In this document: piece by piece, positions 1,161 through 26,626 of the stretch | How the letters are laid out: each line of letters starts with the position of its first letter | Position numbering within the stretch: the first letter of the stretch is position 1 | Assembly: GCA_902591485.1 (NCBI GenBank) | Contig: CACJAV010000001.1 | Location: forward strand, 142,945-206,944 | Direction of reading: 5' to 3' | From: an uncultured Alphaproteobacteria bacterium | GTDB taxonomy: Bacteria > Pseudomonadota > Alphaproteobacteria > HIMB59 > GCA-002718135 | DNA: 64,000 nt | Translations under genes and position numbers: made by a program | Notes under the pieces: model-generated | The model's database searches: none | Told to the model about the DNA's origin: nothing | The model's input: the letters and a program-made list of their open reading frames with translations, nothing else

Positions 1161-2588
1161 TTATTGAATTCTATCAACTTCTTCCAACAATTCTTGTTGG
1201 AATTCAGCGATATTATCAAGAGTAGTTTGAGCATCTTGTTGACCAGTAATTGCTTTGTCAAACTCTTCTTGTTGTTGAGTTAATAATTCAAAGAATTCTG
1301 GAATATGCCAAACATCTTTTTGCCAGTCCATACTTGCAACATAAGCTGCATTCCATGGAGCTAAAGCATTGTATCCGTCAGAGTAAATAATACTCTTCAT
1401 ACAACTTTGACCACCTGCTTTAACAGCTGCAATTTGGGTATCAAAAGATAACCACCATTTAATAATTTTAAATGCTGCATCTATTTCCTCATCAGTCATC
1501 CAAGTTGTTAATACAAATGGTTGGCCTCCAAGATTGGCCCAACGAGATATTGTGCCATCATCCTGCATTGTGCCTGGTTGACGAGCATAGCCAGTTATAT
1601 CGTGAACTTTAGATAAATTTGGATCAACAACTGGTGCACCTAAACCAACCCAGTTAATCATTGAAGCAATTTTACCTTCTAGATATAAAGCTTGCATTTC
1701 AAAAATACCCATACCCCCTGTCTTATGAGAAGGATGCATAGTTGCAAGTAAGTCCAGGTATTTAGTTAGTGCTGCAACGTTAATATCTGAATTAACAACA
1801 CCAATAGCTTGTGCGTCAGGCTGTTGATCTTCTCTCCATATATCTCCTCCGTATTGCCAGAAGAAACCGTTTATTTGCATAGAAGAGAAGTCGTAAGCTT
1901 TACCAGCTTGATATGTTACACCAAACATGTCATCTTCAAGTGGTTTACCAGCTAACATTTCACCTTTTTTACGAGTTAAGAACTCATTGATATCAAAAAT
2001 ATCATCCCAAACTACAATCTCCCAGTCTGCATAAGTACAAGGAAGTTTTTTTCCATACTTAGCTCTGAAAGCTGCATTTTCATCAGGGTTACAGAAAATA
2101 TCAGTTCTGTAGAAGTTTACATAGTTATCAGGGAATTGAGGAAAGCCATAATAGTTTTCACTCTTATATGGATAAGTTGTGTAACCTTCTTTGTAACCTT
2201 GATGCATATCATCAAAAATAGCTTGAAGTTCAGGATCTGCATCAATGTATTTATTTAATTTTTGAAAGTAGCCACCTTCAATAAATGCACCTAGCCATTG
2301 ACTGTCTGATACAATCATTGAATATTTTTGCTCACCTGAAGTAAGTGAAGCTGCTACGTTTGTATAGAAGTTATCCCATGGAATAAAATCTAGTGTTAAC
2401 TTTATCTCAGTATCACCTGTCTGAGGAAAGTTAGAGTTAAAATACTCTTGCATGAAACGAGTTGGAGGCCAATCAGGCGCTGCCATAATTATTTCAACTG
2501 TTTTCGCATTAACAGTTTTCGAAACACCTACAGAAAAAACAATAGATGCTAAGAAAGCAAGAAGGAATTTTTTCGTTAAATTTAACAT
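1161..2588 (-). CDS. Sugar ABC transporter substrate-binding protein (CUT1 family)
   Basis: N-terminal signal peptide, 475 aa, DSQWLG and C-terminal AITGQQDAQTTLD pattern; AGGAG-like SD; upstream of two permeases. Confidence 0.9.
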   Translation of the reverse strand: MLNLTKKFLLAFLASIVFSVGVSKTVNAKTVEIIMAAPDWPPTRFMQEYFNSNFPQTGDTEIKLTLDFIPWDNFYTNVAASLTSGEQKYSMIVSDSQWLGAFIEGGYFQKLNKYIDADPELQAIFDDMHQGYKEGYTTYPYKSENYYGFPQFPDNYVNFYRTDIFCNPDENAAFRAKYGKKLPCTYADWEIVVWDDIFDINEFLTRKKGEMLAGKPLEDDMFGVTYQAGKAYDFSSMQINGFFWQYGGDIWREDQQPDAQAIGVVNSDINVAALTKYLDLLATMHPSHKTGGMGIFEMQALYLEGKIASMINWVGLGAPVVDPNLSKVHDITGYARQPGTMQDDGTISRWANLGGQPFVLTTWMTDEEIDAAFKIIKWWLSFDTQIAAVKAGGQSCMKSIIYSDGYNALAPWNAAYVASMDWQKDVWHIPEFFELLTQQQEEFDKAITGQQDAQTTLDNIAEFQQELLEEVDRIQ

Positions 2589-2807
2589 TTTACCTCCCGA
2601 TATTATATTCTTAAATATACTAAATCAGAATTTTATATTAAAAATATAAAGAATCTTTATATATATAAAAAAAAATGCTCTTATTTTTCAACAATATTTT
2701 TAAGTTTTTTTTAATGTTTTGATAAATAAAAATAAGAATTTTACTAAATTTCATATATGAAGAACATATTTACTAATAAATTATTGTTTATTATTAATTT
2801 CTAACCA

Positions 2808-3194
2808 ATGCTTGAAAATACAATAAAGAAATATTTAAAGAGAAAAATTAAACATTTTGATGACTCTCAAGATGAGCGAAATGAGACGATAAATTACTTT
2901 AGACGTTCTAGAATTCACTGGCTTTTTTTACTAAATATTCTTAAAGCACATTATGAAAAAGATATTATCACTAAAAGTGATTTGATACACAAAATACAAG
3001 TCTCACATATAACTATATTAAAATATATTAGAGAAACTATTAATCGGAAAATTATTTTAGAGGTAAGATCAAAAAAAGATAAGAGAAAAGTAGGTTTAAT
3101 TCCTTCAAAAGAATTAATTGATTCTTTTGAAAATTTTTTTTATGATGAAACAAGATCTTTAAAAGATCTTTTTGATGAAAGAATGGAAGATTAA
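2808..3194 (+). CDS. Winged-helix (MarR-like) transcriptional regulator
   Basis: HTH-like ITKSDLIHKIQVSHITILKYI plus MarR-type wing SKKDKRKVGL; divergent from the SBP gene. Confidence 0.6.
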   Translation: MLENTIKKYLKRKIKHFDDSQDERNETINYFRRSRIHWLFLLNILKAHYEKDIITKSDLIHKIQVSHITILKYIRETINRKIILEVRSKKDKRKVGLIPSKELIDSFENFFYDETRSLKDLFDERMED

Positions 3195-4271
3195 TTAATT
3201 AAAAGCACTAACACCTGTCTCATTAGAAAATAAATATGAATTATCAATATTAAAATTGACCTTAATATTTTGACCTGTTTCATATTTAATAGCATCTTCT
3301 TCTGGTAATATCATTTTTAACTTTGTGTCTTTAATAGTTAAATCTAAAATAGTTACATCTCCAAGCGGCTCTTTTAAAAAGATTTTAGCTTCATAATTAT
3401 CTGCGTTACTAGAAATATGAATGTCATTAGGTCTAATTCCAAACATAAGATCTGTTGAAATAAAGTCAGAATTTATTTTTTTATTTTTATTAGTTGATAC
3501 ATTTCCAAATGGTAATTCAATCTGATTATTAACAATTTTTGCATTAATTAAATTCATTTCAGGTGAACCAATCATTTTTCCAACATATAAATTTTTAGGA
3601 TTTAGATATAATTCATCTGGAGTACCTTTTTGTATTAATTTACCGTCTTTAATAATAGTAATATTATCTCCCATCGTTAATGCTTCCAGTTGATCGGGTG
3701 TTGCATAAACCATTGTCATATTCAAATCTCTTTGAAGTCTTTTTAGTTCAGCTCTTGTATCGTGACGAAGTTTTGCATCAAGATTAGCAAGAGGTTCATC
3801 TAAAAGCAATAATTTTGGTTGTTGTATCAAAGCTCTACCAATGGCTAATCTTTGTTGCTCACCACCAGATAAAGTATCTGGTTTTCGGTTTAGCGCATGA
3901 CTAATTCTTAACATTTCTGCTGTTTCAGAAATTCTCTTAGCTATTTCATTTTTATCAATTTTTTTCTTTATTAAAGGGTAAGCGAGGTTATCATGCGTTG
4001 TTAGATGAGGATAGAGAGCGAATGTTTGAAAAACCATTGCCATTTCCCTTCCTTGAATTGGTGCGTCTGTAAAATTATTTTGATTAAACCAAACTTCACC
4101 GTTTTCTGTTTTTTCTAAACCCGCAATGCATCGAAGAGTTGTAGTTTTGCCTGCAGCAGAAGATCCAAATAAAACAGCAAATTCATTTTTTTCTACAGAA
4201 AAATTTAATTGATCAACTGCAACTAAATCATCATATTTTTTTGTAATATTTTTTAATTCTAAATATGCCAT
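3195..4271 (-). CDS. Sugar ABC transporter ATP-binding protein (MalK-like, degenerate H-loop)
   Basis: Walker A GSSAAGKTT, LSGGEQQR signature, Walker B LLLDEP, C-terminal TOBE-like region; YATPDQ instead of YVTHDQ. Confidence 0.93.
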   Translation of the reverse strand: MAYLELKNITKKYDDLVAVDQLNFSVEKNEFAVLFGSSAAGKTTTLRCIAGLEKTENGEVWFNQNNFTDAPIQGREMAMVFQTFALYPHLTTHDNLAYPLIKKKIDKNEIAKRISETAEMLRISHALNRKPDTLSGGEQQRLAIGRALIQQPKLLLLDEPLANLDAKLRHDTRAELKRLQRDLNMTMVYATPDQLEALTMGDNITIIKDGKLIQKGTPDELYLNPKNLYVGKMIGSPEMNLINAKIVNNQIELPFGNVSTNKNKKINSDFISTDLMFGIRPNDIHISSNADNYEAKIFLKEPLGDVTILDLTIKDTKLKMILPEEDAIKYETGQNIKVNFNIDNSYLFSNETGVSAFN

Positions 4272-19148: not shown

Positions 19149-19207
19149 TTTTTATTACTGGTGAAAAATAATTATTATTTTTTAAAAAATAATATAACTA
19201 ATAAAAT

Positions 19208-21262
19208 ATGAAAAATAACTGGAATCAAAATGAAGCAAATAATTTTATTAAATCATATAAGCAAAAAAATATATCGAAAGATTTAGCTTTAAGAGTTTAT
19301 ACTACGCAACTGTTAGGTAAAAATAATAAATTAGTTCTTCATGGTGGCGGAAATACATCACTGAAAACAACTGCAAAAAATATTTTTGGAGAAAAAATTG
19401 ACGTTATGCATGTCAAAGGTAGTGGTTGGGATATGGGATCAATTGACTCTCCTGGTCTACCAGCAGTTGAATTAGATCCATTACTAAAAACAAAAAAATT
19501 ATCTAAATTAAATGATTTTGATATGGTCAACCTTCAAAGAAGATGTCTGCTAGACTCAAAATCACCAAATCCTTCAGTAGAAACGTTACTTCATGCTTTT
19601 CTACCTTTTAAATTCATAGATCACACTCATGCAAATGCTATTTTAAGTTTAATTGATCAACCAAATGATGTTGAAATTTGTAAAAAAATATTTGGTAAAA
19701 AAATGGGTATTGTTCCATATGTAATTCCTGGATTTGATTTAGCAAAATTAGCTTACAAAGTTTTTAAAGAAAATGAAAAAGTAGAAGGATTAATTTTATT
19801 AAATCATGGCATATTTACTTTTGGTAATACAGCTAAAGAAAGTTATGATCGAATGATTAAATATGTAACAATAGCTGAAAAAGAGTTGAGTAAATACAAA
19901 AATAATATCTTAAATAAAAAAAATAATTCAAAGAAAAACAACAAATTAAAAAGTCATATTATTTTACCATTAATAAGAAAAAACCTATCAGTTAAAAATG
20001 AAAATGGAGATTACACAAAATGGATTTTCGATATACGAGTTAATAAAAATATACTTAATTATTTAGATCATAAAAATTTAAAAAATTTTACAAGCAGAGG
20101 CACAGTAACACCTGATCATGTGATTAGAACAAAATCAAAACCTCTTATTCTAAATATTGGGAATTTAAATCAAGTTAAAATTGATTATTTGCTTCATAAA
20201 GAAATAGAAAAATATAAAAAAAACTACAAAAAATATTATTTAAAAAATAAAAAATTTGAAAAAAATGCAATTGAGCTTGATGGAAATCCAAGGTTAATTT
20301 TTATTCCAAATTTTGGAATTGTCGCAATTGGTCGATCAAAAAAGGAAGCTAAAATTGCTGGAGACTTAGCTGAAGCTCAAGTAGATATCATTTCGAAGGC
20401 AGAGTCATTTGGAAGATTTTCCTCTATATCTGAAAAAGAAATTTTTAAAGTTGAATATTGGCCATTAGAGCAAGCTAAATTGAAAACTTTAAAAAGGGCA
20501 AAATTAACTAGCAATGTAGTTGTTATAAGTGGTGGTTGTGGTGCTATTGGCTTAGCAATAGCAAAAGAATTTTTAATGAATGGAGCTGAAGTAGTTCTTC
20601 TAGAAAATAACTCAATTAATATAAAAAATACACCAACGGACATTGCAAATAATTGCACTATTATAAAATGTGACGTTACAAATAGTAATAATGTCAATAA
20701 AGCAATTGTAAAAATTGTTGATATTTATGGTGGTATCGACATTATGGTTTCTAATGCTGGAGCAGCATGGCAAGGGGAAATTGGTAAAGTTAATACAAAG
20801 ATACTGAAAGAGAGTTTTGATCTCAACTTTTTTGCTCATCAATACTTATCTCAAGCTTGCATTGATATTATGTTAAAACAACAAACTGGAGGTGTGCTTT
20901 TATTTAATATTACAAAGCAAGCAATTAATCCTGGCAATAACTTTGGGCCTTACGGCATACCAAAAGCATCGACTTTATTTTTAATGAGGCAATATACATT
21001 AGAATATGGAAAATTTGGAATAAGATCAAATGGTGTAAATCCAGATAGAATTAGATCTGGTTTAGTCAGTGACAAGATGATAGCATCCAGATCAAAGGCT
21101 AGAAATGTTTCTGAAAAAGAATACATGTCAGGAAATTTACTAAAGGAAGAAGTTTTAGCTGAAGATGTAGGGAAAGCTTTCCTATCTCTTGCTTTAGCTA
21201 AAAAAACAACAGGTGATGTTATGACGGTAGATGGAGGAAATATTCAAGCTGTTTTAAGATAA
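19208..21262 (+). CDS. Bifunctional class II aldolase / short-chain dehydrogenase (RhaD-SDR, YuxG-like)
   Basis: LVLHGGGNTS, PSVETLLH, DHTH, LLNHG, TPDHVIRTK, then SDR SGGCGAIG, SNAG, YGIPK. Confidence 0.9.
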   Translation: MKNNWNQNEANNFIKSYKQKNISKDLALRVYTTQLLGKNNKLVLHGGGNTSLKTTAKNIFGEKIDVMHVKGSGWDMGSIDSPGLPAVELDPLLKTKKLSKLNDFDMVNLQRRCLLDSKSPNPSVETLLHAFLPFKFIDHTHANAILSLIDQPNDVEICKKIFGKKMGIVPYVIPGFDLAKLAYKVFKENEKVEGLILLNHGIFTFGNTAKESYDRMIKYVTIAEKELSKYKNNILNKKNNSKKNNKLKSHIILPLIRKNLSVKNENGDYTKWIFDIRVNKNILNYLDHKNLKNFTSRGTVTPDHVIRTKSKPLILNIGNLNQVKIDYLLHKEIEKYKKNYKKYYLKNKKFEKNAIELDGNPRLIFIPNFGIVAIGRSKKEAKIAGDLAEAQVDIISKAESFGRFSSISEKEIFKVEYWPLEQAKLKTLKRAKLTSNVVVISGGCGAIGLAIAKEFLMNGAEVVLLENNSINIKNTPTDIANNCTIIKCDVTNSNNVNKAIVKIVDIYGGIDIMVSNAGAAWQGEIGKVNTKILKESFDLNFFAHQYLSQACIDIMLKQQTGGVLLFNITKQAINPGNNFGPYGIPKASTLFLMRQYTLEYGKFGIRSNGVNPDRIRSGLVSDKMIASRSKARNVSEKEYMSGNLLKEEVLAEDVGKAFLSLALAKKTTGDVMTVDGGNIQAVLR

Positions 21263-22966: not shown

Positions 22967-23000
22967 TTATAATAAAATTAAGTTAAAAGAAAAAAGCAGC

Positions 23001-23894
23001 TTAATTTTTTATTCCCATAAAATACAATAAAGATGTTAAATCTGTATTATTTATTTGGTTTTCAAAATTGGCTTTAACAATATCTTGAGCTTTAAATGCT
23101 ATTGGCAATCCAACTGATAGTAGCATGTTCATATCATTAGCTGCATCACCCATTCCTATAATTTGATCACTATTAATTTTTAATTCTTTAGATATTTTTT
23201 TTACAATCTTTTGCTTGTAATTAGCATTTACTATCGGTCCCACTGTTTTACCATTAAAAAGATCTCCAATAACACCAAATGTATTTGAATATTCTTGATC
23301 AATTTTGAGATAACTTCTAACATAACTAGTAATTGGTTTGAAACCTCCAGAGACCAATATTGTATGTATTTTATTATTTTTTAATTCTTGAAACAATTTT
23401 TTTGCGCCTTTCATAAAAGAAACAATTCGTTTTGCCTCCTCTAAAGATGATAAACGTAATCCTTTTAAAAGATGTACTCTGTTCTCAAGGGAGGTAGAAA
23501 AATCTAATCTACCTTTTAAACCAAGGTCAGTAATTTTTTTTACTTGTTCCCCCTTACCCAAAAATTTTGCAATATCATTTAATGTTTCATTTTCAATAAT
23601 AGTACCGTCCATATCTGTAATTAATACTTTCTTTTTTCTTAATGATGAATTTTGAATACAGAAATCAACTTTAATTTTGTTAACTCTTTTTTTTAAATTT
23701 TTTAATTTAAAATAACTTAAATTATCATTAAAATAATAATCACAAGCTTTATTTTTTTTTAAAACTGATTGTTTTTCAATTTTTATATCTAGAGATAAAA
23801 AAAAATTTCTTATGATTGTTGTTAGTCTTTGATAATTAGTTATTTCGGCATCTTTTAATACAAATGTTAAAACGAAATTTTTATCATACTTCAT
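23001..23894 (-). CDS. serB: Phosphoserine phosphatase
   Basis: HAD motifs DMDGT, VSGGF, K, GDAANDMNM; ATGA overlap with the serA fusion. Confidence 0.9.
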   Translation of the reverse strand: MKYDKNFVLTFVLKDAEITNYQRLTTIIRNFFLSLDIKIEKQSVLKKNKACDYYFNDNLSYFKLKNLKKRVNKIKVDFCIQNSSLRKKKVLITDMDGTIIENETLNDIAKFLGKGEQVKKITDLGLKGRLDFSTSLENRVHLLKGLRLSSLEEAKRIVSFMKGAKKLFQELKNNKIHTILVSGGFKPITSYVRSYLKIDQEYSNTFGVIGDLFNGKTVGPIVNANYKQKIVKKISKELKINSDQIIGMGDAANDMNMLLSVGLPIAFKAQDIVKANFENQINNTDLTSLLYFMGIKN

Positions 23895-25645
23895 ATTACA
23901 ATCGACTTTACTTGATTTACATATTTAATTTTTCTAAGTGAATTTAATAATATTTCATCACATAATTGATCAGTTTGTATTAGAGCTATTGCTTCGCCGT
24001 TTTGAGATACCCTACCTAGATTAAAAGTTGCTATGTTGATTTTATTTTTAGTTAGAATTTGTGTAATATTGTTAATCACTCCCACCTTATCTTTATTAGT
24101 TATATAAATATTAAAATTTCCTAACTCAGCGTCTATCTTAATTCCTTTTATTTCAACTATTCTTGCATTCCCTCCAAAAATTGAACCTGCTACAGATCGA
24201 GATCTTCTATCAGTGGTCACAGTTAACCTTATAAGTGTGTTGTATTCTGATGGATGATCATTTTTTAAAGTTGAAATTTTAATATTTCGTGATTTGGCGA
24301 TTTCAATTGCATTGATAGTATTTACATTATCAACAAATGAAGCTAAAAGATTGTGAACTACGCTTCTAGTTATTAAATCTTGATTTATCATAGAAGCTGT
24401 TCCCTCAAACTCAATTGTAATTGCCTTTATTGCATTTTCAGTTAATTGACCTGCAAAAGATCCAATTTTTAGAGATAAATCTAAATAAGGACCTAAAATT
24501 TTTCTTTCATTACCAGTAATTGAGGACATGTTGACAGAGTTAATCACTGTGTCATTTTTTAAATAATCAGATATCTGATTTGATATTTGAATTGATGCTG
24601 CATTTTGTGCCTCTATAGTAGATGCACCTAGATGAGGAGTAAGAATAATATTATCAAGGGAATGTAATGAAGAATTTGTAAGAGGTTCATTCTCAAAAAC
24701 ATCAAGAGCAGCGCCAGTAATTAATTTTCTTTTTAAAGCACTATATAAATCTTTTTCATTAATGAGCCCTCCTCTTGCAGCATTAACTAAATATGATGTT
24801 TTTTTCATTTTTTTAATTTTCTTTAGGTCAATGATGTTTTTTGTATTTTTCATCAGAGGAAGATGCAAAGAAACAAAATCAGAATTTTTTAAAACTTCAT
24901 CTAAAGAAGATTTCTCAGCATCAAGAGATTCAATTCTTTCAGCACTGAGAAATGGATCATACACCATGACGTTCATTTCTAATGATTTTGCAATTCTTGC
25001 AACTTCAGAACCTATGTTACCACAACCAACTAAACCTATTGTTTTGGATTTTAATTCTATTCCTTTAAAAAGTTCTTTTTCCCATTTTTTTTGAATTGTA
25101 GAATGATGAGCAAAAGGAATTTTTCTAGCAAGAGAAAATACCAGACTAATTGCATGCTCAGCAGTAGTTCTTGAAGTACTTTGAGGAGAATTCATTACTA
25201 CAACCCCCCTATTAGTTGCTGTTGTTACATTTACATTATCAACACCAACACCAGCTCTAGCAATAACTTTTAAACGATTAGATTTTTCAATGATTTTTTT
25301 TGTAACTTTCGTTGATGATCTTACTACAATGCCATCATAATTAGAAATAATAGATAAAATCTGATCTTCTGTAAGATTATATTTTTTATCAATTAATATA
25401 TTATTATCTTTAAAAATTTTAAAAGAAGCATCAGAAATTTTATCAGCTATTAAAACTTTAAAACTAGTCTTACTTTTGATGGATCCAATAGATTGAGCTG
25501 ATAAGTTTGGTTTATAACTATGTTTTTTGGCTAATCTTAAAATCGTGTCTTTAGTTTTTTTACTAATGTCTGGGTAATCATTTAGAGCTCTTGATATAGT
25601 CGATGGATTTATACCAATTCTTTTTGAAAATTCTTTTAGATTCAT
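23891..25645 (-). CDS. serA: D-3-phosphoglycerate dehydrogenase with an N-terminal LacI-family HTH domain
   Basis: aa 1-58 LKEFSKRIGINPSTISRALND...YKPNLSAQSI is a LacI HTH plus hinge; then KVLIADK, RAGVGVDNV, GCGNIG, NAARGG, DVFENEP, TPHLGAST and ASB/ACT-like C-terminus. Confidence 0.92.
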   Translation of the reverse strand: MNLKEFSKRIGINPSTISRALNDYPDISKKTKDTILRLAKKHSYKPNLSAQSIGSIKSKTSFKVLIADKISDASFKIFKDNNILIDKKYNLTEDQILSIISNYDGIVVRSSTKVTKKIIEKSNRLKVIARAGVGVDNVNVTTATNRGVVVMNSPQSTSRTTAEHAISLVFSLARKIPFAHHSTIQKKWEKELFKGIELKSKTIGLVGCGNIGSEVARIAKSLEMNVMVYDPFLSAERIESLDAEKSSLDEVLKNSDFVSLHLPLMKNTKNIIDLKKIKKMKKTSYLVNAARGGLINEKDLYSALKRKLITGAALDVFENEPLTNSSLHSLDNIILTPHLGASTIEAQNAASIQISNQISDYLKNDTVINSVNMSSITGNERKILGPYLDLSLKIGSFAGQLTENAIKAITIEFEGTASMINQDLITRSVVHNLLASFVDNVNTINAIEIAKSRNIKISTLKNDHPSEYNTLIRLTVTTDRRSRSVAGSIFGGNARIVEIKGIKIDAELGNFNIYITNKDKVGVINNITQILTKNKINIATFNLGRVSQNGEAIALIQTDQLCDEILLNSLRKIKYVNQVKSIVI

Positions 25646-25663
25646 ACGAAATCGATTTCGTAT
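25644..25663. promoter_or_regulatory. Candidate LacI-family operator overlapping the serA-fusion start codon
   Basis: Perfect 20-bp palindrome ATACGAAATCGATTTCGTAT with central CG; minus-strand TATAAT at 25680-25675 just upstream. Confidence 0.75.
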
Positions 25664-25711
25664 ATAATGATTAAATTATAAAAACAAGTAATTTTTATAG
25701 ATTGATTATAA

Positions 25712-26626
25712 TTAATGACCTCTGTTTATAACGTCTCTGATGCGACTTTTATTGCTAACAAAAGGCCTAATACCTACTTTATATTCTCTGTAAATAATAA
25801 AGAGTCCAGAGAGAGATATTATTAAAGATCCAATTATTTCATATAAGTCAGGTATATCTCTAAAAAATACATACCCAAAAATAAATCCAGCAATTAATTG
25901 AAAATATTGCAGAGGTGCAAATACGCTAGATTCAAGTATTTTTGATGCAGCACTAATGCATAAACCGCCAGTGCCAGCAATTATACCACATAAAATAAAT
26001 ACATAAATATCAGACCCTTTTAAGGGGACATAGTTATTATAAACTAAGAAAGAACTTAATACTAAACCTGATACAGAACCATAAAAAGCAAAAGCTATGG
26101 ATGATTGATTATTTGCGTACATTCTAATTAATAAAACATTTACAGCTAAAATTATAGCACCAATAAACAATAGAAATAAACTGAATGTAAAATGTATTGT
26201 TCCTGGTCGAGACACAATTAAAACACCTATAAACCCAATTAAGACAGCTAAAATTCTTCTAGGTCCCACTTTTTCTTTTAGAATAAAATAAGAAAAGATT
26301 GTCAAAATTAAAGGAGCACTAAATAAAATAGGATAAATTTCACTGAATGCATGTTCTTTAAATGAATTGATAATAATCGCTGCACAGATTAATCCTAAAA
26401 ATCCCCTTAAAAGTTGAATATGTAATTTGTTATTTATTAAAACTTTCCATCCGCTAATAAAATGAAGAGCAAAAGAAATTGGAATTAAACTAAATAAAGT
26501 AATATAAAAATTAATTTCAAGAACTGGATAATTTTGCACTAAATTTTTTTTGATTATAGAATCAAGTAATACAAAAATTGTATACCCAGCAAAACCAAGA
26601 AAAATACCTGCAAAGTTTGAATTCAT
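25712..26626 (-). CDS. DMT/EamA family transporter
   Basis: About 10 TMs, LKEKVG...GFIGVLIVSRPG. Confidence 0.88.
   Translation of the reverse strand: MNSNFAGIFLGFAGYTIFVLLDSIIKKNLVQNYPVLEINFYITLFSLIPISFALHFISGWKVLINNKLHIQLLRGFLGLICAAIIINSFKEHAFSEIYPILFSAPLILTIFSYFILKEKVGPRRILAVLIGFIGVLIVSRPGTIHFTFSLFLLFIGAIILAVNVLLIRMYANNQSSIAFAFYGSVSGLVLSSFLVYNNYVPLKGSDIYVFILCGIIAGTGGLCISAASKILESSVFAPLQYFQLIAGFIFGYVFFRDIPDLYEIIGSLIISLSGLFIIYREYKVGIRPFVSNKSRIRDVINRGH

What the first reader, a model, noticed from the sequence alone, without database searches (positions are those of the whole stretch)
23891..25645. LacI-HTH::SerA fusion: a candidate enzyme-repressor controlling serine synthesis
Seen: one uninterrupted 584-aa ORF. 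Its first ~58 aa are a LacI/GalR headpiece (STISRALN recognition helix, YKPNLSAQSI hinge), joined directly to a complete SerA with intact NAD-binding and catalytic motifs (GCGNIG, ARGG, FENEP, PHLGAST) and an ASB/ACT-like C-terminus. The LacI sugar-binding core is absent. There is no in-frame ATG/GTG/TTG at the junction, so SerA is probably made only as the fusion. serB is coupled by an ATGA overlap. Known: LacI headpieces need an oligomerising, ligand-sensing partner; SerA oligomerises and senses serine via ACT; PutA, BirA and NadR are enzyme-repressor precedents. Inference: SerA may have replaced the LacI core, so serine, NADH or 3-phosphoglycerate could control DNA binding. I do not know of a described SerA with this architecture.
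Basis: partly seen in the sequence, partly recalled or inferred. Interest (0 to 1): 0.88.

Follow-up and report, generated by a model that had tools for sequence, protein, structure and literature searches.

The report
LacI headpiece fused to SerA enzyme
A marine bacterium makes its serine-pathway enzyme SerA only as a fusion to a LacI-type DNA-binding head, next to an unchanging LacI-style operator at its own start codon, so the enzyme probably represses its own two-gene serine cassette.

Summary
ORF 23891-25645 (-) encodes 584 aa: a LacI HTH headpiece and hinge (residues 1-60) joined to a full type I D-3-phosphoglycerate dehydrogenase (63-583). No LacI sugar-binding core and no internal start are present.

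It is not an artefact. One search lists 57 proteins of exactly 584 aa (93-63% identity). Ten loci carry the fusion, and an independent DNA contig spans the junction. The fused proteins form one 100/100 clade. The headpiece is under purifying selection like the enzyme.

New here: a 16-bp CG-centred palindrome, ACGAAATCGATTTCGT, abuts the ATG. It is 100% identical in 8 non-redundant loci whose flanks are 37-45% identical. It is single-copy in three genomes. In one genome the fusion is the only LacI-type HTH.

serB always follows. The operator, fusion gene and serB form a 2.7-kb indel cassette, found in 3 of 187 genomes of the order.

Best reading: a self-repressing enzyme-repressor. Control by serine is inferred, not shown. 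Seven literature searches found no description.

The parts
25646..25661 (.). Candidate operator: the 16-bp perfect palindrome ACGAAATCGATTTCGT with a central CG. In this window it extends to 20 bp (25644-25663) and overlaps the AT of the ATG.
   Evidence: One search found the palindrome. Searches show it identical in 10 of 10 loci (8 non-redundant), with flanks only 37-45% identical. It is single-copy in G000, G045 and G187. Its form matches the LacI-family operator definition in PMC4052901 (passages).
25664..25711 (-). Spacer between the EamA stop and the operator, holding the presumed promoter. A TTG(T/A)C-like motif lies about 26-31 nt upstream of the operator core, followed by a TATATA-like stretch directly 5' of it. 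This is inferred, not shown.
   Evidence: Read directly from the aligned upstream regions. The consensus promoter scan gave no call here and was uninformative: 19 sites against 20.1 expected.
25466..25645 (-). Codons 1-60: the LacI/GalR headpiece (three helices at 3-10, 14-21 and 29-41), the hinge segment YKPNLSAQSI (44-53) and a short flexible linker (54-60).
   Evidence: PF00356 matches 3-47. PDB LacI-family alignments reach residue 57-60. The AF2 model gives the helices and pLDDT below 50 at 54-59. Twenty-eight headpiece columns are invariant in 12 fusion proteins. omega is 0.03-0.31.
24530..25456 (-). PGDH substrate-binding and NAD-binding domains (residues 64-372), with GCGNIG, ARGG, FENEP and PHLGAST.
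   Evidence: PF00389 and PF02826 and TIGR01327. Invariant columns include G207/G209/G212, D230, R291, E320 and H338. The closest solved structures are 1YGY, 3DC2 and 3DDN.
24146..24496 (-). ASB (intervening) domain, residues 384-500.
   Evidence: PF19304 PGDH_inter, 116.1 bits.
23930..24109 (-). C-terminal ACT domain, residues 513-572, the presumed L-serine site.
   Evidence: PF01842 scores 24 bits, below its cut-off of 27. The region is covered by TIGR01327. D519 and N537 align with the Asp and Asn of the M. tuberculosis PGDH ACT site (alignment; the site residues are recalled).
23891..25645 (-). The whole fusion gene (584 codons plus stop).
23001..23894 (-). serB (phosphoserine phosphatase), translationally coupled by an ATGA overlap.
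   Evidence: TIGR00338, 188 bits against a cut-off of 144. It lies downstream of the fusion in all 8 loci that have downstream DNA. It was found in only 2 of 41 related genomes, G000 and G006, both of which carry the long PGDH.
22967..25711 (-). The 2745-bp accessory cassette (promoter and operator, fusion gene, serB) between EamA and YbaK.
   Evidence: G001 (L204) and G011 (L205) have the same HIBADH-MPE-EamA-YbaK-orf149-MOSC order, with about 55 nt between EamA and YbaK and no serA-serB.

Best explanation
The gene encodes a single polypeptide that is both an enzyme and its own repressor. The body is a catalytically competent type I (ASB plus ACT) D-3-phosphoglycerate dehydrogenase. It oligomerises through its NAD-binding domains, as other PGDHs do. 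In place of the LacI sugar-binding core, this oligomer presents two LacI-type headpieces. These recognise the 16-bp CG-centred palindrome that abuts the start codon and lies just downstream of the presumed -10 region. That would block transcription of the serA-serB cassette.

Shown here:
- the architecture;
- its age, single origin and purifying selection;
- strict co-invariance of the recognition helix and the palindrome;
- single-copy placement of the palindrome at the fusion gene's own start;
- co-inheritance of operator, fusion gene and serB as one cassette.

Inferred:
- DNA binding and repression as such;
- that the allosteric state of the enzyme tunes operator occupancy. The most likely form is L-serine at the ACT interface acting as a PurR-like co-repressor, so that one ligand would shut off both catalysis and synthesis of the pathway enzymes.

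The confidence given (0.7) is for the self-repressing enzyme-repressor. I put the serine co-repressor step at about 0.35-0.4.
For: 1. Architecture: PF00356 at 3-47, TIGR01327 at 63-583, no PBP core. No internal start before M151.

2. Not an artefact:
- One search lists 57 proteins of exactly 584 aa at 93-63% identity; 53 of the 57 have PF00356 precomputed.
- Ten loci carry the fusion.
- An independent DNA contig spans the junction and the operator.
- DNA runs X1-X14, from 8 studies, hold at least 83% of the sampled words; one of them may be the source sample.

3. Single origin: on a tree of the dehydrogenase part only, 16 fused rows separate from 25 unfused rows at a 100/100 branch. In an exhaustive scan of 1.84 billion representatives, only one full-length cluster representative spans the junction.

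4. The headpiece is functional, not decaying:
- The recognition-helix residues S15, T16, S18, R19, A20, L21 and N22 are invariant, as are Y44, A50, I53 and G54 of the hinge, in 12 proteins.
- Headpiece against catalytic-core omega: 0.167 vs 0.162 (window-L103), 0.086 vs 0.085 (window-L104) and 0.101 vs 0.057 (L105-L106). The overall range is 0.03-0.31, with pS mostly 0.4-0.8.
- There are no indels: all 57 proteins are 584 aa.

5. Operator:
- The core is identical in 10 of 10 loci. In 8 non-redundant loci the pairwise identity is 1.00, against 0.37-0.45 in the 60 nt upstream.
- It is an even palindrome with a central CG. So are 1251 and 1173 respectively of 1303 LacI-TF motifs, and more than three quarters of local LacI-TFs are autoregulated (PMC4052901, passages).
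- It is single-copy in G000 (up to 3 mismatches) and in G045 and G187 (up to 2 mismatches).

6. In G187 the fusion is the only PF00356 match in the assembly.

7. Oligomerisation: two copies of residues 1-400 scored ipSAE 0.80, against 0.01 for the best of 3 controls.
- The mark was reached by 20 of 30 proteins solved as pairs of one chain and by 1 of 23 solved as single chains.
- The runs agree in at least 98% of contacts, and the partner's pLDDT is at least 83.
- The interface is 159-199, 218-222 and 320-347.
- PGDH dimers are solved, so this pass shows likeness, possibly from memory.

8. The AF2 model shows a three-helix headpiece (pLDDT about 80-90), a disordered hinge/linker at 54-59 and beta-1 at 63-66. 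The headpiece-hinge-beta-1 order I recall from LacI-family structures is thus kept.

9. Cassette logic: serB follows in 8 of 8 loci with downstream DNA. The cassette is a clean indel.
Against: - No experiment exists. DNA binding, repression, catalysis and ligand control are all inferred.
- The palindrome is not improbable by chance in this AT-rich window.
- The Pfam LacI score is only just above its cut-off (29.9 vs 27). The hinge position that aligns with the LacI 'leucine lever' is Ile53 (LacI numbering recalled).
- The site abuts the ATG. [quoted passage not shown]
- The predicted dimer interface involves no headpiece residue. Whether two N-termini of a PGDH oligomer can bring two headpieces onto one 16-bp site through a linker of about 8-10 residues could not be tested here.
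- G000 and G045 each encode two ordinary LacI-family regulators that could in principle bind the site.
- The ACT Pfam score is below its cut-off (24 vs 27).
- Only 2 of the 3 recalled serine-contact residues of the M. tuberculosis enzyme are kept.
- The RNA evidence is contigs from one study's RNA libraries, which may hold DNA.
Confidence: 0.7

Rival explanations
1. Ligand-blind homeostat. The fusion binds its operator and represses the cassette in proportion to its own concentration only. The enzyme body supplies oligomerisation but passes no allosteric signal to the headpieces.
For: All the operator and headpiece evidence above fits this equally well. The linker at 54-59 is predicted to be disordered. 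No headpiece residue is in the confident dimer interface, so no coupling path is visible.
Against: Every one of the 57 listed fusion proteins is 584 aa, so the linker length has not changed. That is more constraint than a passive tether needs. Ligand-responsive binding is what I recall of characterised LacI-family regulators; PMC4052901 contrasts PurR, which binds DNA with its ligand, with the majority, which bind without it (passages). Neither point is decisive.
Confidence: 0.2
2. Sensor-only pseudoenzyme. The PGDH body has become a ligand-sensing regulatory domain. Real PGDH flux comes from the 312-aa PGDH-like protein that overlaps serC.
For: G000 has a second PGDH-like gene at C1:604-1542, overlapping the serC_2 stop by 8 nt. 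Its best family is TIGR01327 at 316 bits, catalytic half only. All 40 relatives have this paralogue.
Against: The fusion scores above the equivalog cut-off for PGDH (581.6 vs 454). The nucleotide-binding glycines, D230, R291, E320 and H338 are invariant across fused and unfused proteins. The omega of the catalytic core is 0.05-0.24. The gene is translationally coupled to serB, and the two travel together.
Confidence: 0.08
3. The palindrome is not the target of the fused headpiece. It is either an mRNA hairpin masking the start codon or the site of another LacI-family regulator. The headpiece would then do something else, such as non-specific nucleoid tethering.
For: The RNA can form a 9-bp hairpin that includes the AU of the AUG. 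G000 and G045 each have two other LacI-type regulators.
Against: The hairpin is weak and no better than shuffles (-6.5 kcal/mol, z 0.22, 103 of 200 shuffles at least as good). There are no compensatory changes at all, only strict sequence invariance. In L023 the core sits 4 nt further from the ATG, so the start codon is not in the stem. No Rfam family reaches its gathering score. In G187 no other PF00356 protein was found. The other LacI proteins sit beside sugar-transporter genes and have different recognition helices.
Confidence: 0.07
4. Assembly chimera, or a recent deletion joining a lacI 5' end to serA, with a decaying headpiece.
For: None found.
Against: The fusion occurs in 10 loci from several sources and in two orders. 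An independent DNA contig crosses the junction. The clade is monophyletic with up to 37% divergence. The headpiece is under purifying selection.
Confidence: 0.01

Closest known systems
LacI/GalR-family repressors, especially the co-repressor type PurR
   Same: The headpiece is a PF00356 three-helix HTH followed by a Y-x-P-N...A hinge segment. The candidate operator is an even palindrome with a central CG at the regulator's own gene (family features from PMC4052901 passages). A biosynthetic end product acting as co-repressor would parallel PurR (PurR mechanism recalled; PMC4052901 states that PurR binds DNA with its ligand).
   Different: The periplasmic-binding-protein-like effector core that defines the family is absent, and an unrelated allosteric enzyme takes its place. 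The lever position is Ile, not Leu. The site abuts the ATG.
Type I D-3-phosphoglycerate dehydrogenase (M. tuberculosis SerA1; PDB 1YGY, 3DC2, 3DDN)
   Same: The full four-domain layout is present (substrate-binding, NAD-binding, ASB, ACT), with 278 bits and about 31% identity. The catalytic residues and GxGxxG motif are kept.
   Different: A 60-residue N-terminal DNA-binding extension is present. None of the 63 listed hits below 55% identity carries PF00356, and no solved PGDH chain listed is described with a DNA-binding domain.
Trigger enzymes and enzyme-repressors: PutA, BirA, NadR (recalled); archaeal RbkR (PMC5397151, listing and start of abstract only)
   Same: One polypeptide joins a metabolic enzyme to a DNA-binding domain and is proposed to control genes of its own pathway.
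   Different: The DNA-binding fold (LacI headpiece) and the enzyme (PGDH) are both different. No serine-pathway example and no LacI-headpiece example was found.
Chimeric regulators made by domain shuffling: AraR (GntR HTH plus LacI-type core; PMC1950556, abstract), MocR/GabR (GntR HTH plus aminotransferase fold; PMC5320631, abstract), and synthetic LacI-DBD chimeras (PMC3505978 and PMC6079105, abstracts)
   Same: They show that DNA-binding heads and effector modules can be recombined, and that an enzyme fold can act as the sensor (MocR).
   Different: AraR keeps the LacI core and swaps the head, which is the reverse of this case. The MocR body is generally not a pathway enzyme (recalled). The LacI-DBD chimeras are man-made and use binding-protein cores.
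Human PHGDH acting in transcription (PMC12204802, one passage read)
   Same: A phosphoglycerate dehydrogenase is reported to associate with chromatin and affect gene expression.
   Different: That case uses an internal helix-helix-turn-helix subdomain of the NAD-binding domain in a eukaryote, independent of catalysis. There is no added LacI headpiece and no operator. It is an analogy only.

Membership tests
LacI/GalR transcription factor family | N-terminal HTH of Pfam PF00356 | tested here: met
   29.9 bits (cut-off 27) at residues 3-47. 33.6 bits in the six-frame genome search. PDB LacI-family hits down to E 5.7e-6.
LacI/GalR transcription factor family | Hinge segment after the HTH (Y-x-P-N...A...L) that would insert at the central CG | tested here: inconclusive
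   YKPNLSAQSI aligns with YRPNLLARNL of 3DBI and with the LacI headpiece (query 4-55 to chain 7-58). Y44, A50, I53 and G54 are invariant. The lever position is Ile, and insertion into DNA is untestable here. LacI residue numbering is recalled.
LacI/GalR transcription factor family | C-terminal periplasmic-binding-protein-like effector domain (PF00532, PF13377 or PF13407), per PMC4052901 | tested here: not met
   No such family was hit at E <= 0.01. Residues 63-583 are PGDH.
LacI/GalR transcription factor family | Even palindromic operator (16-22 nt) with a central CG, commonly at the regulator's own gene | tested here: met
   A 16-bp core (20 bp in the window) with a central CG, invariant in 10 of 10 loci and single-copy. 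The criterion comes from PMC4052901. Actual binding was not tested.
Type I D-3-phosphoglycerate dehydrogenase (SerA) | Match to the equivalog model TIGR01327 above its cut-off, with four domains | tested here: met
   581.6 bits against 454, residues 63-583 matching model positions 1-524 of 525. Pfam domains. The best folds are 3DDN, 3DC2 and 1YGY.
Type I D-3-phosphoglycerate dehydrogenase (SerA) | NAD-binding GxGxxG and the Arg/Glu/His catalytic residues | tested here: met
   G207, G209, G212, R291, E320 and H338 are invariant in 31 aligned fused and unfused proteins. The assignment of catalytic roles is recalled.
Type I D-3-phosphoglycerate dehydrogenase (SerA) | Serine-binding ACT site | tested here: inconclusive
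   D519 and N537 align with the Asp and Asn of the M. tuberculosis site, and the third residue (Tyr) is Asn517 (alignment; site residues recalled). The ACT Pfam score of 24 is below its cut-off of 27.
Type I D-3-phosphoglycerate dehydrogenase (SerA) | Enzymatic activity and serine inhibition | not testable with these tools
   This needs an assay of purified protein.
Trigger enzyme / enzyme-repressor (functional class) | Catalytic domain and DNA-binding domain in one polypeptide | tested here: met
   (no internal start).
Trigger enzyme / enzyme-repressor (functional class) | Controls genes of its own pathway in response to pathway metabolites | not testable with these tools
   Only the conserved operator at its own promoter supports this. 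No binding or ligand data exist.

The most novel reading that the evidence does not exclude
An unrelated allosteric enzyme has functionally replaced the LacI effector core. L-serine binding at the ACT interface of the PGDH oligomer would at once inhibit catalysis and close two LacI headpieces on a 16-bp operator. One ligand and one protein would then give both feedback inhibition and end-product repression. The operator, fusion gene and serB would form a portable, self-regulating serine-prototrophy cassette that has moved between streamlined marine lineages belonging to different orders.
Probability: 0.35. Interest if true: 0.85.

Novelty: new variant of a known kind. Interest (0 to 1): 0.74.

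Why it matters
- LacI-family regulators are described as having a rigid two-domain structure (PMC4052901). This is a natural, conserved exception, in which the headpiece works from a completely different allosteric scaffold. That makes it a natural test of how much of LacI allostery lies in the head and hinge and how much in the core.
- It would be, as far as my seven searches show, the first serine-pathway enzyme-repressor and the first enzyme carrying a LacI headpiece.
- It shows how a streamlined genome can save a whole regulator gene by grafting 60 codons onto the regulated enzyme.
- The cassette is an accessory module that adds SerA and a canonical SerB. It occurs in relatives of SAR11, a group in which glycine/serine auxotrophy is known (PMC10030771 passages). 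It therefore bears on which populations depend on external serine or glycine.
- Practically, the protein and its 16-bp site are a ready-made candidate single-component biosensor for serine or 3-phosphoglycerate.

Tried and rejected
- **Chance test of the palindrome.** Not significant within the window, so I dropped any argument from chance.
- **Consensus promoter and terminator scan.** 19 promoter-like sites against 20.1 expected, none directly upstream of the operator on the minus strand, and 0 terminators. Uninformative in this AT-rich DNA. The promoter placement rests on reading the aligned sequences only.
- **RNA-hairpin reading and known RNA families.** All 3 Rfam matches were below their gathering scores and irrelevant. 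Rejected as the main explanation.
- **Further operator copies or a regulon.** None found. G000 is 83% complete, so a second site in unassembled DNA is not excluded.
- **Independent HTH-dehydrogenase fusions.** Of 10 borderline hits, none qualified: one was a LacI regulator with a PBP core, one a LacI HTH fragment, and eight were dehydrogenases or fragments with unannotated N-terminal extensions. Only these 10 of the 150 listed were scanned.
- **serC with the serC_1 model.** It found only PhnW. serC_2 was then found split over two contig ends.
- **Cassette boundaries.** No flanking repeats or other insertion marks seen.
- **Parts of the stretch without RNA-library contig cover.** These cannot be interpreted. 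The joints in X2 and X4 have sides of only 20-24 letters and were disregarded as metagenome noise.
- **Alignment A2.** It mixed a 100-aa fragment with full-length proteins. It was not used and was replaced by A3.
- **Oligomer geometry.** Whether two headpieces can reach one operator could not be computed. No coordinates are available to scripts, and the complex tool is limited to 1000 residues and takes no DNA.
- **Supplementary files of papers.** Supplementary gene tables of the SAR11 papers might list these genes, and I could not check.


Full report
**Observation**

The window holds one uninterrupted 584-codon ORF at 23891..25645 on the minus strand.
- Pfam places a LacI-family HTH (PF00356, 29.9 bits, cut-off 27) at residues 3-47.
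- The rest is the domain set of a long D-3-phosphoglycerate dehydrogenase: 2-Hacid_dh at 64-372, 2-Hacid_dh_C at 167-340, the ASB 'PGDH_inter' domain at 384-500 and ACT at 513-572. No periplasmic-binding-protein-like domain is present.
- The NCBIfam equivalog model for PGDH, TIGR01327, matches residues 63-583 end to end at 581.6 bits (cut-off 454).
- The only in-frame ATG/GTG/TTG codons before residue 200 are M1 and M151, so a complete SerA can only be made as the fusion.
- serB (TIGR00338, 188 bits) starts at 23894 and overlaps the serA stop in ATGA.
- Unfused relatives begin 'M-x-KVLIADK', exactly where the 60-residue extension ends.

**Real, old and of single origin**

A search of 5.8 billion proteins listed 57 proteins of exactly 584 aa at 93-63% identity. 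Of these, 53 carry a precomputed PF00356 hit. The next hits are 524-530-aa unfused SerAs at about 50% identity.

Ten loci with the fusion were recovered:
- the window;
- G045 (L021) and G006 (cut by a contig end at residue 53);
- one named genome record (L023, a Pelagibacteraceae MAG, 64% identity);
- seven metagenome contigs, L103-L109.

An independent metagenome contig of 952 nt (run X4) covers 24783-25734 with 6 differences, which takes in the junction, the headpiece, the ATG and the palindrome. A 299-nt contig from an RNA library (X15) covers 25318-25616. All of these are contigs, and an RNA library can contain DNA. DNA runs X1-X14, from 8 studies, hold at least 83% of the sampled words; one may be the source sample.

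On a maximum-likelihood tree of the dehydrogenase part alone, the 16 fused rows are one side of a 100/100 branch against 25 unfused rows. I chose those 41 rows for diversity; the remaining listed proteins were left out. In an exhaustive HMMER scan of 1.84 billion cluster representatives with residues 1-130, a single full-length representative (P0007) spans the junction, together with four short fragments. Ten borderline hits were scanned and none is another HTH-dehydrogenase fusion.

**The headpiece is maintained by selection**

In 12 fusion proteins spanning the clade, 28 of the first 60 columns are invariant. They include S15, T16, S18, R19, A20, L21 and N22 of the recognition helix, and Y44, A50, I53 and G54 of the hinge.

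Nei-Gojobori estimates on 10 loci give a headpiece omega of 0.03-0.31, where dS could be estimated. That is of the same order as the catalytic core (0.05-0.24):

| Pair | Headpiece omega | Catalytic core omega |
|---|---|---|
| window-L103 | 0.167 | 0.162 |
| window-L104 | 0.086 | 0.085 |
| L105-L106 | 0.101 | 0.057 |

Most pairs are near synonymous saturation and the headpiece has only 60 codons, so these values are rough.

The headpiece aligns with solved LacI-family proteins through the hinge (3DBI, E 5.7e-6; LacI headpiece 2BJC/1L1M, query 4-55 to chain 7-58). An AlphaFold2 model (mean pLDDT 80, pTM 0.55) gives three helices at 3-10, 14-21 and 29-41, a low-confidence stretch at 54-59, and the first PGDH strand at 63-66. 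So the headpiece-hinge-beta-1 order that I recall from LacI-family structures is kept, but beta-1 now belongs to the PGDH substrate-binding domain.

**The new observation: an invariant operator-like site**

A perfect palindrome lies at 25644-25663, ATACGAAATCGATTTCGTAT, and its last two bases are the AT of the ATG.
- In all 10 loci the 16-bp core ACGAAATCGATTTCGT is identical.
- In 8 non-redundant loci (L103 dropped as nearly identical to the window, L108 as nearly identical to L021), pairwise identity is 1.00 for the core and 0.37-0.45 for the 60 nt upstream.
- In nine loci the core abuts the ATG. In the most distant one (L023) it lies 4 nt further upstream.
- It occurs once in G000 (up to 3 mismatches on the 18-mer), once in G045 and once in G187, the genome of L023 (up to 2 mismatches on the 16-mer). 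G006 shows none, because its contig ends inside the gene.

Ravcheev et al. 2014 (PMC4052901, passages read) report:
- 1251 of 1303 LacI-TF motifs are even palindromes of 16-22 nt;
- 1173 have a central CG;
- more than three quarters of local LacI-TFs are autoregulated.

The site here has exactly that form. In G187 the fusion is the only PF00356 match in the assembly; that genome's completeness is not reported. G000 and G045 each have two ordinary LacI regulators. Those of G000 sit beside sugar-binding-protein genes and have different recognition helices.

Against over-reading:
- Such a palindrome is not improbable by chance in this 29% GC window.
- Its position next to the ATG is atypical. [quoted passage not shown]

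**Rivals for the site**

As RNA it folds into a 9-bp hairpin of -6.5 kcal/mol, no better than shuffles (z 0.22, 103 of 200 at least as good). There are no compensatory changes, only invariance. No Rfam family reaches its threshold. This favours sequence-specific recognition of DNA by a protein.

**The enzyme part and oligomerisation**

The closest solved structures are the M. tuberculosis type I PGDH entries 3DDN, 3DC2 (serine-bound) and 1YGY, at 278 bits by sequence and Foldseek E 1e-46 to 1e-44. The nucleotide-binding glycines, D230, R291, E320 and H338 are invariant across 31 fused and unfused proteins. D519 and N537 align with the Asp and Asn of the M. tuberculosis ACT serine site, and the third residue, Tyr, is Asn517 (alignment; site residues recalled).

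Two copies of residues 1-400 gave ipSAE 0.80, against 0.01 for the best of 3 controls.
- The mark was reached by 20 of 30 proteins solved as pairs of one chain and by 1 of 23 solved as single chains.
- The runs agree in at least 98% of contacts, and the partner's pLDDT is at least 83.
- The interface is the NAD-domain one (159-199, 218-222, 320-347).
- PGDH dimers are solved, so this shows likeness rather than new evidence.
- No headpiece residue is in the confident interface.

**Cassette and physiology**

serB follows the fusion in all 8 loci that have downstream DNA. In the window's order, the long PGDH occurs in 3 of 187 genomes, all in one genus: G000 plus 2 of 104 others. Canonical serB was found in 2 of 41 genomes, G000 and G006, both of which carry the long PGDH. 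G187 was not among the 187 genomes of that order, so the cassette occurs in at least two orders.

G001 and G011 keep the same HIBADH-MPE-EamA-YbaK-orf149-MOSC order, with about 55 nt where the window has 2745 bp (22967-25711). The operator, fusion gene and serB are therefore a discrete indel cassette.

The genome also has:
- glyA;
- a serC_2-type gene split over two contig ends;
- overlapping the serC stop, a 312-aa PGDH-like gene (TIGR01327, 316 bits, catalytic half only) that all 40 relatives share.

The cassette therefore adds a regulated long SerA and a canonical SerB to a resident SerC. Whether cassette-less relatives are serine auxotrophs cannot be said, because serB is often replaced by other families (10.1101/2024.10.14.618325, passages). 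[quoted passage not shown] The passages I read do not mention a fusion (PMC10030771).

**Mechanism proposed**

- Shown: the architecture, selection on the headpiece, co-invariance of the recognition helix and the site, single-copy placement at the fusion gene's own start, and co-inheritance of the cassette.
- Inferred: PGDH oligomers present two headpieces to the palindrome, which lies directly 3' of a TATATA-like stretch and about 26-31 nt from a TTG(T/A)C-like motif, and so block transcription of serA-serB.
- Further inferred, with lower confidence: L-serine at the ACT interface changes the relative position of the subunits, and with it operator occupancy, acting as a PurR-like co-repressor.

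**Comparison and novelty**

It works like a LacI-family autorepressor and like a trigger enzyme (PutA, BirA and NadR, recalled). It fails the defining LacI-family feature of a PBP-like core. It passes all testable features of a type I PGDH.

Seven full-text searches of open-access PMC and bioRxiv found no description of a LacI-headpiece::SerA protein.

I rate it a new variant of a known kind, the enzyme-repressor, with an unprecedented pairing of parts.

**Verdict**

| Item | Assessment |
|---|---|
| Observation | confirmed |
| Self-repressing enzyme-repressor | about 0.7 |
| Serine control of DNA binding | about 0.35-0.4 |
| Artefact | about 0.01 |
| Interest | 0.74 |

Noticed in passing
G000:C31:7776-8099 and G000:C1:3-611 (loci L196, L195); G000:C1:604-1542: serC (serC_2 type, TIGR01365) is split across two contig ends. 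Its stop is overlapped by 8 nt by a 312-aa PGDH-like 2-hydroxyacid dehydrogenase lacking ASB and ACT domains. All 40 relatives searched have this paralogue. It could be a short PGDH or serve another SerC-linked pathway.
   Followed up: partly
window 25712-26626 (-): An EamA/DMT-family transporter gene lies directly upstream of the cassette in 8 of 10 loci. L109 has two EamA paralogues in tandem upstream. EamA is also present in cassette-less relatives, so it is a neighbour and not part of the cassette. Whether it moves serine-related compounds is unknown.
   Followed up: partly
window 19173-19194: A 22-bp perfect palindrome made only of A and T, TATTATTTTTTAAAAAATAATA, ends 14 nt before the ATG (19208) of a 684-aa ORF (19208..21262). 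That ORF was not scanned against any family library.
   Followed up: no
window 24565-24580: A 16-bp perfect palindrome, AATCAGATATCTGATT, lies inside the serA coding region. It may well be chance.
   Followed up: no
G000:C11:24768-25592 (L186 1417-2529): A 2-aminoethylphosphonate--pyruvate transaminase gene (PhnW, 520 bits) suggests phosphonate use by this organism.
   Followed up: no
L104 (metagenome contig) 532-1650: In this locus the fusion gene, with its operator, follows the metallophosphoesterase gene directly, with no EamA between them. In L023 the upstream genes are unrelated. So the cassette sits in at least three different contexts.
   Followed up: partly
L202 (G024:C81) 2413-3776: Downstream of an 86%-identical EamA, this relative has about 1.3 kb that matches none of the window's neighbouring proteins (no YbaK, no SerA/SerB). 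It is a third state of this insertion point.
   Followed up: no
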